Shown piece after piece: positions 15,001 through 21,000 of a stretch of DNA of 32,444 nucleotides. Made by a program: the position numbers. The stretch covers positions 1-32,444 of the IMG/VR virus record IMGVR_UViG_2859821903_000002, one strand, 5' to 3'. This DNA is from a virus. Taxonomy: Duplodnaviria > Heunggongvirae > Uroviricota > Caudoviricetes. Within the stretch, counting starts at the first letter, position 1. Each line of letters starts with the position of its first letter.

Positions 15001-18000
15001 ATAAAACGGTGAAGGTGCCGGAATGGGGGAATGTCAGCGTGGTGCTGCGGGAGCCTTCGGCAGAGGCCTGGTATCTGTGGCAGGAAGTGCTCAATGGTGA
15101 TGGAGAGGATGACGATACCCTGTCGGTGGTGGCGAAAACCCGCCGTAACCTGGAAGCGGATGTGACGCTGTTCTGCGATGTCCTGTGTGATACGGACCTG
15201 CAGCGGGTGTTCACTCCGGACGACCGTGAGCAGGTGCTGGCCGTCTATGGTCCGGTACATGCCCGGTTGCTGCGTCAGGCACTGGAACTGATCGCTGATG
15301 CAGAGTCGGCCAGAAAAAAGTAGCCCGCCCGGAAATTCGCTTTCTGATGCGACTTGCGCTCCGTCTGGGGCGCACCTTATCCGAACTGCGCCACAGCCTG
15401 AGTGCGAGCGAGGCGATGATGTGGATGGAGTTCGACAGGATATCCCCGCTGGGTGATGAGCGCGGGGATATCCGTAATGCACAGATCGTGAAAGCGGTTT
15501 TCGGGGCACAGGGGATGAATGTTGCACTGAAGGACGTCATGCTCTGCTGGGGCGAGGATGAGGATAAGCCGGAGGTGGATCCGTTTGCGGCGCTGGAAGA
15601 CGCGCTGAGCTTTGCAGCACAGTCATGAATGATGAGAACCGCTGAGGCGGTTTTTTTACGCCCGGAGAAAGGTGAATGGCGACGTTACGTGAACTGATTA
15701 TCAAAATTGTAAGCTTCCGGGGAACTCATATTGACGCGTTTTTCAGGCGCGCGTCATCGGCGGCGCATACGAACGCTCGTGGTTTGATAACGGTTGATTT
15801 ATTTTGTTGCACAGAGGCGATCGCCAGGCAGGTACCGGAGGCGGGCTCTGAAGTACTGAGTAGCGTGATCGCGTCAGGCCGCGAAGTACTGACTCGGGGA
15901 TTAATTGCAGGTGATGATGTACTGACCCGGGAATGACTCCGGGCTGATTCAGGTTCTTATTCGCTGTCAGCCCGCGTGGTTGCTGGTCTGGCTCATTTCC
16001 TGCCGTCAGGAATTCAACTCCCGACTGCAGGTTATGGCCCGGTGCACGAACACCTGACGGCAGGTATCACTCACCCGGAGAAGGTAAATCCTCAAGAGGC
16101 AGCAACTCTGCCAGTCGCTCCTCCGGCCACTCCGGCAGACGCATCAGGACGTCTGTCAACCAGGCATGCGGCTCCAGACCGTTGCGTTTCGCGGTTTCCA
16201 GCAAGCTCATTATTTGCGCGGCGCGTTCTCCCGCCATCTGCGAACCGGCGAACAGCCACGATTTTCTGCCCAGAACCACGTTTTTGATGGCCCGTTCACA
16301 CACATTATTATCCAGCGGCACCGCACCATCTTCCAGGAAGCGGCTCAGTTCCACGCGATGAGACAGCGCATAGGCAATGGCTTTGTGTAATGCCTTTCCC
16401 GGAGAACATTGCGGTTCCTGCTCTTCAAGCCATGACCACAGTTCTTCCAGTATCGGACGGGCATAACGCTGTCGCCACTGGCGGATTTTTTCCACGGGGC
16501 GGCTACTGATCTTCTTCTCAAGACGGTACAACCCCGCGATTTTCTTCACGGCTATGGCAGCCCGTGGATCTTTACTGATTTTATACAGGTCGGCGAAGCC
16601 CCTGCGGGCATGGGCCCAGCATCCGGCCAGCGTGATCTCCGGCACTTTGTTTGCCAGAGTCCGGTAAGCTTTATGTCCGTCGACAACCAGCGTCCCGCCC
16701 CAGCCCTGAAGCCAGTTTTCAGGATACTCATGGCTACGTCCGGTCCGGCAGTCGAAGCACACAACTGACGGTCCCGTCCTTTCTCCACTGACGTATGCCC
16801 ACAGATAACCGGAGCAGGATTTACCGCCTTTCTTCGTGTTCAGGATCTTCAGGGTAGTCTCATCTGCATGCACCACCGGACGGTTTATCAACTCGCGATG
16901 GAGTAACGCCGCCAGGGGAGATAATGCGGCACCCGCCGCGCCAACCATGTCAGCCATCGAACTGACGGGCAGCCCGACATCTGAACGGGCAAAGACCTGT
17001 TGCTGGCGATACAGAGGCAGGTGGTCACCGTATTTATTGATGATCACCTGTGCGATGACTGATGGCTCAACGGCACTTTTCGGGAGGATATGTGCCGGCA
17101 TTTCACCGCTGAACACCTTCTGGCAACAGGGACAACTGTATTGCGGACGGACATAACGGTTCACCACAAAGTGAGCGGGAATATACTCCAGCTTTTCACT
17201 CACCGCATCGCGGATATAGTGCAGCGGCTCGTCACATTCAGGGCAATGGTCAGTGTCCGGCTGGATAATTTTTTCCACCCGTGGAAGATGAACCGGTAAG
17301 GGTTTGCGTATCGGGCGTGAACGGGACGCTTTTTCATCTTCTTCAGGGGATTGCGGGAGCAGTTTATCCAGATGTGCGGTAAGCGCGGCGATATCGGCAT
17401 CAACATCCTCTTCGAATAGGGAGCGTTGCATACCAGCCAGCGTTTCACATTTTTTTCCGAAGCGCTGTTGACGAACCAGTTTCAGCATTTCTTCCAGAAG
17501 CTGGATGCGCCGGCTTTTCTCCAGTAATTCCCGCTCTTTTTCGGCATTCTCCGACATGACTTCTTGTACCATGGCAAGTGCCATAGCACGCAGTTTTTCG
17601 ATGTCATTCGTGGTGTTGAGAGCGGAGATATCCATACAGGGGAGTATACCACTCCAGATACGGATATTCATTATTTTTCACTGAGTTAGCAGTGTATTTT
17701 GCGTGTTTTCAGGGCGCAGTTCAGGTTCATTCTGCCAGACCCATTTCGTCAGGTCATGTCCCTTAACCTGCTGCCAGTCAACACCGGCAATCAGCCAGTT
17801 AAACTCGTCGGGAGTGAGGTGCCAGGCAGCGTCATTTGCACGTGGCCAGCGGAAGCTGCCTTTGTGCAGACGGCGGGTACACAACCACACCCCGTGTTTA
17901 TCCCACCGGAGAACTTTGATACGCGAACGGGCTTTGTTAACAAAGACGAAGGCGGCTCCCTCATGCCATGTCGACCGGAGTTCATCCTGTATATACTGCG

Positions 18001-21000
18001 TCAGTGAGTCGATGCCCCGGCGCATGTCAACAGGTTTAATTGCGATGAAGACATTATCAGGACTGAGCATATTTGAGTGCCCTGAAGACATCGGTAAGTT
18101 GTGACGGCTGACAGCACATCCGTACTCCACCGGGAAGGAAGAGCGTGACTGGCTCATTCGTGACGGGCTGTGGTACATCAGCATGCAGTGGTGGCGCAAT
18201 ATGAACGGGAAGAACGGTCGGTTCATTTGCCCGGCGTTCAGCTTTTGCGACATCCTGCGGCCATTCGCGAAGTGATGTGAAGGGAATATCGTTGAGTTCA
18301 CAGTATTGCTGACGTGTAAGACCACTGGCGCGCCAGGCAGCAACGAGCTGCCTTTTCTGTTCAATGGTCCATCGGGGTTTTGACATCGATTATCTCCGGT
18401 AAGTTGGTGAATGGATGTCGGTAATACTAACTGACCGAAGATCCCTGTGAAGATGACTTCCCCGTAACGACACTCAAAATTTCGGCAAATTCACAGTCAT
18501 TCCAGTCGGAGATCCAGCGGGCGTCCCGTATGGGCAGTGAATATTACCGGACCCTGCAGAATGGCGGACGTCATGCCGCTGCTGCCGCACGGGAACAGCG
18601 CCGCGCCCTTGCAGAACTGAACAGTCAGTTGACGGAAATTCGCGGTTCTGCTGTCGGAATGGCTGGCGCATTTGCCGGTGCCTTTGCCACCGGACACCTG
18701 ATTTCGCTGGCCGATGAGTGGGGTTCCGTGAATGCCCGTCTGAAACAGGCATCTCAGTCATCGGATGAATTCTCGTCATCACAGAAAGTGCTGATGGATA
18801 TCAGTCAGCGAACAGGTACCGCGTTTTCGGATAATGCGGCCCTGTTTGCCCGTTCGGCTGCCTCGATGCGTGAATATGGTTACAGTGCTGATGATGTGCT
18901 GAAGGTGACGGAGGCCATTTCGACAGGACTGAAACTGTCAGGGGCTGGAGTTGCGGAATCCGGTTCGGTGATCACCCAGTTCAGCCAGGCACTGGCACAG
19001 GGTGTACTGCGTGGCGAAGAATTTAATGCTGTTAACGAAAATGGCGACCGGGTGATCCGCGCGCTTGCTGCGGGGATGGGTGTGGCCCGTAAAGATCTGA
19101 AGGCAATGGCGGATGACGGAAAACTGACAGCGGATAAAGTGGTCCCTGCGTTAATCAGCCAGCTGGGGATATTACGTGATGAATATGCGGCCATGCCGGA
19201 AACGGTTTCCGGTAGTATCACGAAGGTGGAAAACGCCTTTATGGCCTGGGTGGGCGAAGTGAATGAGGCCTGCGGGGTGACAAAAATGCTCTCCGGCGTG
19301 CTGAACGGTGTTGCCGGACAGATTGATAATGTGGCAACAGCTGTGGGGGCGCTGGTTGCCGTCGGGGTTGCCCGGTACTTTGGCAATATGGCCTCCGGAG
19401 CGATGTCTGCCACGGCAGGACTTGTGACGGCTGCACGTAATGAAGTTGCACTGGCGGAAGCACAGTTCAGGGGAACGCAGATTGCCACGGCGCGGGCAAG
19501 GGCAGCCGTGTACCGTGCTCAGCAGGCCGTGGCGGCAGCCCGCGGGACGGAGATGCAGATTGCTGCAGAGGCCCGTCTGGCGGCCACACAGGAACGCCTG
19601 AACAGAAATATTGCTGCCAGAAGCGCCGCCCAGAATGCGCTGAACAGTACAACGGCGGTGGGCTCACGTCTGATGAGCGGTGCGCTGGGGCTGGTTGGTG
19701 GCGTACCCGGACTGGTGATGCTGGGGGCTGCAGCATGGTACACGCTGTACCAGAATCAGGAGCAGGCCAGGGAGTCTGCGCGCCAGTATGCACTGACGAT
19801 AGATGAAATCGCGCATAAAACGCCGTCAATGTCTTTGCCTGAAGCCTCAGATAATGAAGGACGAACACGGGCGGCGCTGACAGAGCAGAACCGGCTGATT
19901 GATGAACAGGCTAGTCGGGTGAAATCCCTGCAGGAAAAAATCGCAGGATATCAGTATGTTCTGGCGAACCCGGGCTGGACGACCGGTGACGGATTCATGA
20001 TAAACCATCTGACCTCGGTGAAGACCGTAACGGAAGGGCTTGCTCAGGCAACAGAGCAGCTTGCCGTTGAGCAGTCCCGTCTGGCACTGATGCAGGAAAA
20101 AGCGCAGTCCATTCAGGATGTGCTTGCCGGGCTGGAAGACCGTCGTGTGGCGTTAATTCGTTAGCAGGCGGCAGAGCAGAATAAGGTGTACCAGTCCATG
20201 CTGGTTATGAACGGTCAGCATACGGAATTCAACCGTCTGCTGGGGCTGGGTAATGAACTGCTTCAGCAGCGGCAGGGACTGGTGAATGTGCCGTTACGGC
20301 TGCCACAGGCCACTCTGGATGATAAACAGCAGAGTGCCCTGACAAAAACAGAGCGTGAGCTGGCCCTGTCCAGACTGAAAGGGGAAGAAAAAGAGCGTGT
20401 CCGACTGGGGTATGCGGCGGATGACCTCGGTTTTGTGGGTGATCCGTATCAGGAGGCGAGACAACGTTATATCAGTAATGCCCTGGAAGCCTGGCGCAAT
20501 AACGAGGCGAATAAACCCAAATCCCGGGGTGGAAAATCAGAGACGGAAAAAGCGGAAGACAGTTTTTCCCGGCTGCTGAAGCAGCAGAAAGAGCAACTGG
20601 CACTGGCGGGGCAGAATACAGAGCTGGCGAAGCTGAAATACCAGACTGCGCAGGGCGAACTGAAAACCCTGACGGAGATGCAGAAGCAGGAACTGCTGCG
20701 CAATGCGGCCCTGATTGACCAGCAAAAAATCCGGGAGCAGTTGCGGTCCCGGGAAGAGACCCTGAAGAATGATAATGTGGCTGCGCGTGCATCAAATGAA
20801 GCGGAACTGCTGGGGTACGGGCAGGGAGAGCGGCTCCGTGAACGCATGCGGGAGTTGCAGCAGATCCGCGACAGTTTCCGCCAGAAGGATGCGGACCTTC
20901 AGTCTCAGTATCAGACCGGGGATATCAGTGAGGATTTTTACAGACAGGCTCTGGCACAGAACGCGCAGTATCTGAGTGAACGTCTGAAAGAGCAGGAAGC

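What the first reader, a model, noticed from the sequence alone, without database searches (positions are those of the whole stretch)
15701..18481. IS66-family element inserted after codon 11 of the tape-measure gene with a clean 8-bp target duplication
TCAAAATT occurs at 15701-15708 and 18474-18481. Removing 15709-18481 joins MATLRELIIKI to SANSQSFQSEIQRASRMGSEYY... in frame. The element begins GTAAGC and carries tnpA-tnpB-tnpC on the minus strand. The precise duplication and intact transposase suggest a recent insertion that would abolish tail assembly.
Basis: seen in the sequence. Interest (0 to 1): 0.5.

Follow-up and report, generated by a model that had tools for sequence, protein, structure and literature searches.

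The report
Old ISEc49 insertion splitting prophage tape-measure gene
A known IS66-family jumping gene (ISEc49) sits inside the tail tape-measure gene of a decayed lambdoid prophage exactly as described, but the insertion is old, shared by hundreds of Shigella genomes, and ordinary.

Summary
TCAAAATT flanks a 2765-bp element (15709-18473) that is 99.0-99.7% identical, end to end, to copies RefSeq names ISEc49 (IS66 family). Four independent copies share its termini, and each has its own perfect 8-bp duplication. An E. coli relative has the uninterrupted site with one copy of TCAAAATT and an intact 1080-aa tape-measure gene with the same N-terminus.

"Recent" is wrong. The window is NCBI record CP026839.1. 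The junction-specific 86-aa fusion ORF is on record on about 715 contigs named Shigella flexneri, boydii and dysenteriae. Ten further chromosomes carry the identical insertion.

The IS and its flanks have diverged together. Since insertion the tape-measure ORF has drifted neutrally: 8 nonsynonymous, 2 independent nonsense and 2 synonymous changes. Differences from the intact homologue are 27 synonymous to 4 nonsynonymous (p = 3e-5). Later IS1 insertion and deletion events are nested on top.

The window's own TAG (20162) is lineage-specific. Its frameshifts (16090, 21436 and at least 14 others) are one-directional homopolymer deletions, probably assembly errors. One of them alters the last six TnpC residues.

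Public annotation hides the disruption behind a 1086-aa "tape measure protein" that starts at a CTG inside the IS end.

The parts
15676..15708 (+). 5' stump of the tape-measure gene: codons 1-11 (MATLRELIIKI)
   Evidence: Identical to the first 11 residues of the intact 1080-aa WP_000212762.1. It lies directly after the tail assembly chaperone G and T genes.
15701..15708 (.). Left copy of the 8-bp target-site duplication TCAAAATT
   Evidence: A single copy at L001 9493-9500 in the empty-site relative aligns to both window copies.
15709..18473 (-). ISEc49 (IS66 family), 2765 bp here versus 2766 bp in all other copies
   Evidence: 99.0-99.7% identity over 100% of its length to copies annotated 'IS66-like element ISEc49' on E. 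coli chromosomes and plasmids. Its termini are identical to four independent copies, each with its own 8-bp duplication.
15709..15735 (.). Terminal inverted repeat at the tnpC-distal end (GTAAGCTTCCGGGGAACTCATATTGAC)
   Evidence: 19 of 27 positions match the reverse complement of 18447-18473 (repeat finder I3).
15850..15925 (.). Three copies of GA(A/T)GTACTGA spaced exactly 33 nt apart, in the 358-nt non-coding tail of the IS
   Evidence: the repeat finder D7/D12. TRF does not call it a tandem array. Its function was not tested.
16067..17671 (-). tnpC, the DDE transposase. RefSeq copies start at the equivalent of 17635, giving 521 aa.
   Evidence: PF03050, PF13817, PF13005 and PF13007. NF033517 scores 442 bits against a cut-off of 180.
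16090..16091 (.). CC run where every other copy has CCC. The 1-base loss changes the TnpC C-terminus from GFTFSG to DLPSPGE.
   Evidence: It is private to this assembly and absent from same-site copies in short-read assemblies of the same lineage.
17678..18070 (-). tnpB (IS66 accessory protein, 130 aa)
   Evidence: PF05717. NF033819 scores 115 bits against a cut-off of 50.
18057..18386 (-). tnpA (IS66 accessory protein, 109 aa), overlapping tnpB by 14 nt
   Evidence: NF047593 scores 48.2 bits against a cut-off of 28. There is no Pfam hit. RefSeq names the homologue WP_000042910.1 as TnpA.
18447..18473 (.). Terminal inverted repeat at the tnpA-proximal end. An inward-facing promoter-like site lies at 18451 to 18424.
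18474..18481 (.). Right copy of the 8-bp target-site duplication TCAAAATT
18482..21690 (+). Remainder of the tape-measure gene (codons 12-1080), now a pseudogene
   Evidence: PF20155, PF06120 and PF09718. Aligns along its whole length to the intact gene of L001.
20162..20164 (+). In-frame TAG (CAG to TAG, Gln572 to stop), specific to the window's sub-lineage
   Evidence: C in L001 and in all ten other carrier chromosomes; T in the window and in short-read contigs L003-L006. No complete E. coli genome matches this region perfectly.
21436..21439 (+). GGGG run where all relatives have GGGGG. The apparent frameshift is probably an assembly error.
   Evidence: The missing base is present in L001, L003-L006 and L011-L020.
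15676..15936 (+). 86-aa fusion ORF (11 tape-measure codons read through into the IS). It has no presumed function but serves as an exact marker of this junction.
   Evidence: Found on about 715 contigs and in 993 index blocks; named as a Shigella MULTISPECIES hypothetical protein.
18431..18481 (+). IS-end codons (CTG ACC GAA ...) that public annotation uses as the start of a 1086-aa 'tape measure protein'
   Evidence: P0018 begins MTEDPCEDDFPVTTLKI-SANSQ, which equals the translation of 18431 onward. This stretch contains no ATG, GTG or TTG (one search lists the first start at 18530).

Best explanation
This is one copy of the catalogued insertion sequence ISEc49 (IS66 family: tnpA, tnpB and the DDE transposase tnpC). 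It transposed once into nucleotides 26-33 of the tail tape-measure gene of a long-tailed lambdoid prophage. That happened in an ancestor of a large group of Shigella, and it duplicated the 8-bp target TCAAAATT. The insertion separates the first 11 codons, the ribosome-binding site and the upstream late-operon transcription from the other 1069 codons. It places 2.8 kb of oppositely oriented genes in between, so no full-length tape-measure protein can be made (inferred). In siphoviruses this protein is required for tail assembly (established knowledge from lambda gpH). The insertion has since been inherited vertically. The downstream ORF has drifted as a pseudogene and acquired different nonsense codons in different lineages: Gln572 to stop in the window's lineage and Gln487 to stop in another. 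The prophage suffered further IS1 insertion and deletion. Among the tail-module lesions examined, the ISEc49 insertion is the oldest shared one. Shown: identity, boundaries, empty site, distribution, co-divergence, relaxed selection and the order of nested events. Inferred: a single origin, loss of tape-measure expression, and that the window's many single-base frameshifts are long-read consensus errors.
For: Identity and boundaries. The element matches annotated ISEc49 copies at 99.0-99.7% over its full length. NCBIfam equivalog models for the IS66 transposase, TnpB and TnpA are all above their cut-offs, with supporting Pfam domains. Four independent copies have the same termini and their own perfect 8-bp duplications.

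Empty site. The joined flanks match 1244 complete E. coli genomes at 80% coverage or more. The best match is 99.6% in one piece, inside an intact 1080-aa tape-measure gene.

Age and distribution. The filled junction is absent from 5,426 complete E. coli genomes. It is present on about 715 contigs named Shigella and in 10 further chromosomes with identical site, orientation and duplication.

Single origin. All same-site copies share T at 17417 where four independent copies have C. Pairwise distances in the IS and in the flanking gene correlate (r = 0.73; means 0.18% and 0.13%).

Pseudogene drift. Among carriers there are 8 nonsynonymous, 2 nonsense and 2 synonymous changes. Differences from the intact homologue are 27 synonymous to 4 nonsynonymous, Fisher p = 2.7e-5.

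Order of events. IS1 in the major tail gene has a 9-bp duplication in some carriers. The same IS1 junction with an adjacent deletion occurs in others. The window lineage has neither.

Assembly-error signature. Window-private indels at 13875, 16089 and 21435 are absent from four short-read assemblies. All 10 indels in 21691-26723 are 1-base deletions in the window, nearly all in G runs.

No outward promoter-like site exists at the IS end facing the gene.
Against: Vertical inheritance from a single event is inferred from 11 chromosomes and from protein-name metadata, not from a genome phylogeny.

Only one diagnostic IS substitution (17417) supports a single origin.

The 27:4 'fixed' differences cluster in the last 320 nt of the gene. 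They probably reflect a mosaic segment from another phage rather than in-situ divergence, so they serve only as a general benchmark for selection on functional tape-measure genes.

The sample of post-insertion substitutions is small (12).

Whether the prophage was still functional when the IS arrived is unknown.

Loss of expression was not measured.
Confidence: 0.9

Rival explanations
1. One reading: a recent, essentially strain-private transposition into an otherwise functional prophage, which is what disabled it.
For: The 8/8 duplication is perfect and all three IS ORFs are open. The element is 99.7% identical to other ISEc49 copies.
Against: The identical insertion is in 10 other chromosomes and on about 715 contigs across three named Shigella species. 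The IS has co-diverged with its flanks. Lineage-specific nonsense mutations, an IS1 insertion and a deletion are layered on top of it. The window's prophage lacks its early region and is truncated by IS1 and IS3-family elements.
Confidence: 0.02
2. The IS landed in a prophage that was already dead (for example, already without its early region). It is then a passenger in junk DNA and not the cause of tail loss.
For: The window's remnant has no early or regulatory genes upstream of a truncated lysozyme gene. Even the empty-site E. coli relative has a nonsense codon in terL and a frameshifted portal gene. So this prophage family is often defective without the IS.
Against: The terL stop of the E. 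coli relative is not shared by the window (C rather than T at window 7794). Every other tail-module lesion examined is younger than the IS or lineage-specific. In short-read carriers the neighbouring tail genes are intact (L003). The relative timing of the loss of the early region could not be tested.
Confidence: 0.3
3. Recurrent independent insertions of ISEc49 into a preferred target (a hot spot) in several Shigella lineages.
For: Some insertion sequences have hot spots. Only one diagnostic shared substitution supports a single origin.
Against: Site, orientation and duplication are the same in all 11 chromosomes. IS and flank distances correlate. Five independent ISEc49 insertions elsewhere have unrelated targets: GAATGAAG, CTTCATAC, CTTTCTCT, GTTAATGC and a rearranged copy. 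None of 1,244 E. coli genomes with the same target sequence is occupied.
Confidence: 0.03
4. Assembly artefact: a repeat-induced misjoin placed an IS inside the gene.
For: The assembly shows many homopolymer errors.
Against: An independent short-read contig (L003) spans both junctions. L004-L006 each reach at least one junction. Ten other assemblies agree. A misjoin would not create a precise 8-bp duplication of a sequence that is single-copy in the empty site.
Confidence: 0.005

Closest known systems
ISEc49 (IS66 family), as annotated by RefSeq/PGAP on E. coli chromosomes and F-type plasmids (e.g. NZ_CP065614.1, NZ_AP042571.1, NZ_CP048920.1)
   Same: 99.0-99.7% nucleotide identity over the full length. 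Termini, gene order (tnpA-tnpB-tnpC) and 8-bp duplication are identical.
   Different: The window copy is one base shorter (C lost at 16090-16091), which alters the last 6 TnpC residues. It carries T at 17417 and the lineage-specific changes G to A at 16012 and T to A at 18346 (TnpA H14L). The ISfinder reference entry itself could not be consulted.
IS66 / IS679 / ISEc8-type elements (IS66 family as defined by Han et al. 2001, J Bacteriol 183:4296, and Gourbeyre et al. 2010, Res Microbiol 161:136; both recalled from memory and listed as references in PMC6778807)
   Same: Three ORFs with tnpC as the transposase, imperfect terminal inverted repeats, and an 8-bp duplication. PMC6778807 restates the three ORFs and the 8-bp duplication.
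   Different: Only one terminus starts with the family-typical GTAAGC; the other starts GTGTCG. The inverted repeat matches at 19 of 27 positions. There is a 358-nt non-coding tail after tnpC with three 33-nt-spaced motifs.
Tape-measure protein H of long-tailed lambdoid Stx-converting phages (Stx1a/Stx2c-converting phages, phage 2851, Escherichia phage JLK-2012) and lambda gpH
   Same: The uninterrupted homologue is 95.5-95.8% identical in DNA to these phage genes. It lies between the G/T chaperones and the minor tail protein M. It has the TMP_3, HK97_TLTM and Tape_meas_lam_C domains.
   Different: Here the gene is split after codon 11 by the IS and carries a nonsense codon. ISEc49 is not present in any of 50,697 phage records.
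IS-driven prophage and genome decay in Shigella and E. coli O157 (general phenomenon; from memory: Yang et al. 2005 NAR, Asadulghani et al. 2009 PLoS Pathog)
   Same: An IS insertion into a structural phage gene is followed by further IS insertion, IS-adjacent deletion and point pseudogenisation.
   Different: Nothing differs in kind. This is one well-resolved example.

Membership tests
IS66 family insertion sequence | DDE transposase of the IS66 type (TnpC) | tested here: met
   NF033517 (equivalog) scores 442 bits against a cut-off of 180. PF03050 has E = 2e-90, with the zf-IS66, LZ_Tnp_IS66 and IS66_C domains also present.
IS66 family insertion sequence | Accessory gene tnpB (IS66 Orf2) | tested here: met
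   NF033819 scores 115 bits against a cut-off of 50. PF05717 has E = 3e-35.
IS66 family insertion sequence | Accessory gene tnpA upstream of, and overlapping, tnpB on the same strand as tnpC | tested here: met
   NF047593 scores 48.2 bits against a cut-off of 28. The order is tnpA 18386-18057, tnpB 18070-17678, tnpC 17671-16067, all on the minus strand, with a 14-nt tnpA/tnpB overlap.
IS66 family insertion sequence | 8-bp target-site duplication | tested here: met
   TCAAAATT is duplicated here and single-copy in the empty site. Four other ISEc49 copies each have a perfect 8-bp duplication. The family value of 8 bp is restated in PMC6778807.
IS66 family insertion sequence | Imperfect terminal inverted repeats, typically starting GTAAGC(G) | tested here: met
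   The repeats match at 19 of 27 positions. One end begins GTAAGC and the other GTGTCG, so the typical start is present at one end only.
ISEc49 (named element) | Near-identity to the ISfinder reference sequence (ISfinder's usual isoform criterion is recalled from memory) | not testable with these tools
   ISfinder is not available. As a proxy, the element is 99.0-99.7% identical over 100% of its length to copies that PGAP names 'IS66-like element ISEc49 family transposase'.
Siphovirus tail tape-measure gene (lambda gpH / HK97-type) | Tape-measure domains and a length of about 1,000 aa | tested here: met
   PF20155, PF06120 and PF09718 are found on the window fragments. TIGR01541 scores 244 bits against a cut-off of 105 on the intact 1080-aa homologue.
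Siphovirus tail tape-measure gene (lambda gpH / HK97-type) | Position after the tail assembly chaperones G and T and before minor tail protein M | tested here: met
   See the annotation of L001 and the gene calls with Phage_TAC_1, Phage_tail_T and Phage_min_tail.
Siphovirus tail tape-measure gene (lambda gpH / HK97-type) | The 11 codons upstream of the IS are the true N-terminus | tested here: met
   MATLRELIIKISANSQSF... is identical to WP_000212762.1 and to P0017.
Siphovirus tail tape-measure gene (lambda gpH / HK97-type) | Encodes a functional protein (uninterrupted ORF under purifying selection) | tested here: not met
   The gene is split by the IS and has TAG at codon 572. Substitutions among carriers are 8 nonsynonymous, 2 nonsense and 2 synonymous. 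It is a pseudogene of this family.

The most novel reading that the evidence does not exclude
In most carriers the 3.2-kb ORF downstream of the IS is still open. It might be expressed as the IS-fused 1086-aa protein that databases list (a CTG start in the IS terminal repeat, with transcription reading out of or through the IS). An N-terminally rewritten tape-measure protein would then still act, for example in a domesticated tail-like particle.
Probability: 0.02. Interest if true: 0.45.

Novelty: already known. Interest (0 to 1): 0.12.

Why it matters
It matters little for biology. An IS in a prophage structural gene is a textbook step in Shigella genome decay, and both the element and the host genomes are already public.

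There are three modest practical points.

(1) The insertion looks like a single-origin marker shared by many S. flexneri-, S. boydii- and S. dysenteriae-named genomes and absent from 5,426 complete E. coli genomes. It could serve as a lineage marker, and it gives a dated starting point for watching a pseudogene decay.

(2) A widely propagated RefSeq-style protein, the 1086-aa "MULTISPECIES: phage tail tape measure protein [Shigella]", is a chimera. Its first 15 residues come from the IS terminal repeat, so automated annotation hides the disruption.

(3) A perfect target duplication and open transposase ORFs do not indicate a recent insertion. Also, the frameshifts in this particular assembly should not be read as biology.

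Tried and rejected
- An exact-match scan of GTDB species-representative genomes for the left junction found nothing, so it gave no information on distribution. The exact-protein index was used instead.
- I tried to identify the strain or serotype behind CP026839.1. No paper in the library mentions the accession. Two Shigella typing papers have no held supplements. The Kim et al. 2018 PacBio announcement (PMC5897796) and Han et al. 2001 (PMC95320) are not held. Linking CP026839.1 to the PacBio 'historical Shigella' set therefore rests on my memory only.
- Hit H46 seemed to extend 24 nt beyond the IS end into the flank, hinting at a shared target. On inspection it was a chance BLAST extension, and that copy has mismatched flanks.
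- I first counted the 21435 frameshift, and the split gpL, gpJ, terL, capsid and Lom ORFs, as evidence of decay. I withdrew this after seeing that the window-private indels are almost all 1-base deletions in homopolymer runs (16 deletions against a single 1-base insertion in a T-run at 8094) and are absent from short-read assemblies.
- I tested whether the terL nonsense codon of the empty-site relative is shared, which would show the prophage was dead before the IS arrived. It is not shared.
- Rfam found no RNA family in or next to the IS. TRF found no tandem array in it. No outward promoter-like site exists at the IS end.
- Literature searches for ISEc49 returned only two papers that mention it in passing.

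Full report
**1. The observation**

TCAAAATT occurs at 15701-15708 and 18474-18481, and nowhere else on either strand of the window. The sequence between the two copies begins GTAAGC. Its two ends form an imperfect inverted repeat, matching at 19 of 27 positions. Deleting 15709-18481 joins MATLRELIIKI in frame to SANSQSFQSEIQRASRMGSEYY. Three ORFs lie on the minus strand: 18386-18057, 18070-17678 and 17671-16067.

**2. What the element is**

The 2765-bp segment 15709-18473 matches copies that RefSeq annotates as "IS66-like element ISEc49" at 99.0-99.7% identity over 100% of its length. These copies lie on chromosomes and on F-type plasmids. In all, 205 of 5,426 complete E. coli genomes hold a copy covering at least 80% of the query.

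- The largest ORF has the DDE_Tnp_IS66, zf-IS66, LZ_Tnp_IS66 and IS66_C domains, and the middle ORF is TnpB_IS66.
- The NCBIfam equivalog models for the IS66 transposase, TnpB and TnpA are all exceeded: 442 bits against a cut-off of 180, 115 against 50, and 48 against 28.
- Four independent copies were checked: in trbE-traF, in traX, next to rpnC, and next to agn43. All have the same first and last bases, and each is flanked by its own perfect 8-bp duplication (GAATGAAG, CTTCATAC, CTTTCTCT, GTTAATGC).

Both boundaries are therefore fixed independently of the window. Given fixed ends, an identical 8-mer at both has a chance probability of about 1.5e-5. An 8-bp duplication and three ORFs with tnpC as the transposase are the family hallmarks, as restated in PMC6778807.

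**3. The empty site and the target gene**

The joined flanks (500 + 500 nt) are found at 80% coverage or more in 1,244 complete E. coli genomes. The best match is 99.6% in a single piece in E. coli O157:H16 NZ_CP062876.1. There they lie in an intact 1080-aa gene annotated as phage tail tape measure protein, located between the tail assembly chaperone / protein T genes and the minor tail gene.

- That gene's N-terminus is MATLRELIIKISANSQSF….
- Its single TCAAAATT (L001 9493-9500, nucleotides 26-33 of the gene) aligns to both window copies.
- The window fragments carry the TMP_3, Phage_HK97_TLTM and Tape_meas_lam_C domains.
- The intact gene is 95.5-95.8% identical to gene H of long-tailed Stx1a/Stx2c-converting phages, phage 2851 and phage JLK-2012.
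- ISEc49 occurs in none of 50,697 phage records.

The structural claim, an IS66-family element inserted after codon 11 of a tape-measure gene with a clean 8-bp duplication, is fully confirmed.

**4. The insertion is not recent**

The window is identical to NCBI record CP026839.1 (assembly GCA_002950115.1, 4.27 Mb). No complete E. coli genome has the filled junction; matches break exactly at 15708/15709.

The 86-aa ORF created by the junction (11 tape-measure codons read into the IS) is on record on about 715 contigs and in 993 index blocks. It is named "MULTISPECIES: hypothetical protein [Shigella]", with S. flexneri, S. dysenteriae and S. boydii entries.

Ten further chromosomes were read, including CP000036.1, CP026807.1, CP026834.1, CP026840.1 and CP049285.1.

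- All have the IS at the same site, in the same orientation and with the same duplication.
- The same-site copies differ from each other by 0-11 substitutions. These distances correlate with those in the adjacent 3.2 kb of the tape-measure gene (r = 0.73; mean pairwise 0.18% and 0.13%).
- All same-site copies share T at 17417, where four independent ISEc49 copies have C.

The simplest reading is one old insertion, inherited vertically.

**5. What happened afterwards**

After in-silico excision most carriers have an open 1080-codon frame. The window's lineage (the window plus short-read contigs L003-L006) has CAG to TAG at codon 572 (window 20162). A second lineage (L014, L017) has an independent CAG to TAG at codon 487.

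Polarised against the intact E. coli gene, the 12 substitutions that vary among carriers are 8 nonsynonymous, 2 nonsense and 2 synonymous. For this gene, random change would give about 25% synonymous and 3.8% nonsense. The 31 differences that separate all carriers from the intact homologue are 27 synonymous and 4 nonsynonymous (Fisher p = 2.7e-5). Since the insertion, the gene has therefore evolved without purifying selection.

Within the IS, coding changes among the orthologous copies are 8 nonsynonymous to 4 synonymous, plus one in-frame 15-bp deletion in tnpA. The resident copy shows no sign of being maintained either.

Upstream, four carriers have an IS1 in the major tail gene with a 9-bp duplication (TAAATTCCT, window 14546-14554). 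Six carriers keep the same right-hand IS1 junction but have lost everything to its left, up to pocR/cob. The window's lineage has neither lesion. By parsimony the order is: ISEc49 insertion, then IS1 insertion, then IS1-adjacent deletion. The two nonsense codons arose separately.

**6. Caveats specific to this window**

Relative to four independent short-read assemblies of the same lineage, the window lacks one base at each of 13875 (C-run), 16089 (C-run, inside tnpC) and 21435 (G-run, tape-measure gene).

- Relative to the E. coli relative, all ten indels in 21691-26723 are 1-base deletions in the window, nearly all in G-runs.
- Three of the four indels in 6375-12221 are of the same kind.
- This one-directional homopolymer pattern is what uncorrected long-read consensus produces. 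I treat the resulting "frameshifts" in terL, the capsid gene, gp17, gpL, gpJ, Lom and the 3' end of the tape-measure gene as probable artefacts.
- The one at 16090-16091 makes the IS 2765 rather than 2766 bp. It changes the TnpC C-terminus from …PLEGFTFSG to …PLEDLPSPGE. "Intact transposase" is therefore literally untrue for this sequence, but probably true for the strain.
- I recall that the CP0268xx records belong to a PacBio set of historical Shigella strains (Kim et al. 2018, cited as reference 79 of PMC8767346). I could not verify that link.

**7. Context**

The left end of the window holds IS1 sequences (1-1175) and an IS3-family element with its ALIL frameshift pseudoknot (1791-1907; integrase-core ORF 1833-2723). 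These are followed by an N-terminally truncated phage lysozyme (2977-3339), Rz, the terminase genes and the head genes. The right end holds gpJ, Lom, tail-fibre genes, a DinI-like gene and a chromosomal isochorismatase-family gene. In this strain the prophage is a late-gene remnant with no early region in view.

**8. Mechanism**

Shown: the gene is physically split, and the downstream part has drifted neutrally.

Inferred: the 11-codon stump reads into the IS and ends after 86 codons. The body of the gene has no ATG, GTG or TTG before 18530. There is no promoter-like site facing it from the IS end; the only one there faces inward toward tnpA. No functional tape-measure protein should therefore be made. 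In lambda-like siphoviruses (gpH) that prevents tail polymerisation, which is established knowledge.

Whether the prophage was still viable at the moment of insertion cannot be decided from these data.

**9. An annotation artefact**

The collection holds a 1086-aa "MULTISPECIES: phage tail tape measure protein [Shigella]" (P0018, about 250 contigs) that begins MTEDPCEDDFPVTTLKI-SANSQ…. This is the translation of window 18431 onward: a CTG immediately after a TAA, 43 nt inside the IS terminal repeat. Automated annotation therefore reports the disrupted gene as full-length.

**10. Verdict**

"Recent" is refuted. The element is a known IS, the phenomenon is ordinary Shigella prophage decay, and the genomes are public. 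Interest is low. The useful by-products are a possible lineage marker, the chimeric-protein annotation error, and the warning about homopolymer errors in this assembly.

Noticed in passing
window 7729, 9739, 11948, 13875, 16090, 21436, 22320, 22911, 23027, 23431, 23687, 24011, 24084, 25160, 25237, 26451: Sixteen single-base deletions relative to close relatives, almost all in G or C homopolymer runs, against only one insertion (8094, T-run). They split terL, the capsid gene, gp17, gpL, gpK/I, gpJ and the tape-measure gene. The three that could be checked are absent from short-read assemblies of the same lineage. This is probably long-read consensus error in CP026839.1.
   Followed up: partly
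window 18431-18481, and P0018 / L011 8757-12017: Public databases list a 1086-aa 'MULTISPECIES: phage tail tape measure protein [Shigella]' (about 250 contigs). Its first 15 residues (MTEDPCEDDFPVTTL) are translated from the ISEc49 terminal repeat via a CTG start. This is an annotation chimera that hides the IS disruption.
   Followed up: yes
window 15850-15925 (inside the IS, in the non-coding tail downstream of tnpC): Three copies of GA(A/T)GTACTGA lie exactly 33 nt apart (about three helical turns). A 17-nt hairpin (15999-16015 / 16048-16064) lies just after the tnpC stop. These may be subterminal protein-binding sites and a terminator. They are conserved among ISEc49 copies.
   Followed up: no
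L011/L016/L019/L020 about 4094-4868 (equivalent to window 14546-14554); L012-L015, L017, L018: In other Shigella carriers an IS1 splits the major tail gene, with the 9-bp duplication TAAATTCCT. In six of them the same IS1 borders a deletion that removes all head genes and joins the remnant to pocR/cobU/cobS. Together these form a nested series of decay stages.
   Followed up: yes
L014 and L017 (equivalent to window 19907): A second, independent CAG to TAG nonsense mutation (Gln487 to stop) occurs in the tape-measure pseudogene of another carrier lineage.
   Followed up: yes
window 1-1175 and about 1500-2750: There are two adjacent IS1 segments: a partial copy at 1-393 and a fuller copy at 394-1175. 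An IS3-family element follows, with its ALIL programmed-frameshift pseudoknot (Rfam RF01497, 1791-1907, 120 bits). Together they abut an N-terminally truncated phage lysozyme gene (2977-3339), so the prophage's early region and holin are missing.
   Followed up: partly
window 11843-12221 (and L001 5470-6011): An internal direct repeat of about 210-220 bp at 88-89% identity lies within the head-gene region. It is also present in the E. coli relative, so it is a natural feature of that gene.
   Followed up: no
window 27824-28425: The Lom/Ail outer-membrane protein gene is split into two ORFs (profile positions 1-80 and 100-165). This may be another homopolymer artefact or a real pseudogene.
   Followed up: no
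L021 (NZ_AP042570.1 1202927-1205692): This ISEc49 copy in E. coli OkiPb01695 has non-matching flanks (CACGGTTA and GTTTCAAC) and lies between a truncated Mu-like DNA circularization gene and a truncated ISEc10. It shows that ISEc49 copies do take part in rearrangements. The strain has 10 places matching the element.
   Followed up: partly
L013 (CP000036.1), equivalent to window 18151-18165: A 15-bp in-frame deletion in tnpA occurs in the same-site ISEc49 copy of this chromosome (IS length 2751 bp). There the gene caller fuses tnpA and tnpB into a 210-aa product.
   Followed up: no
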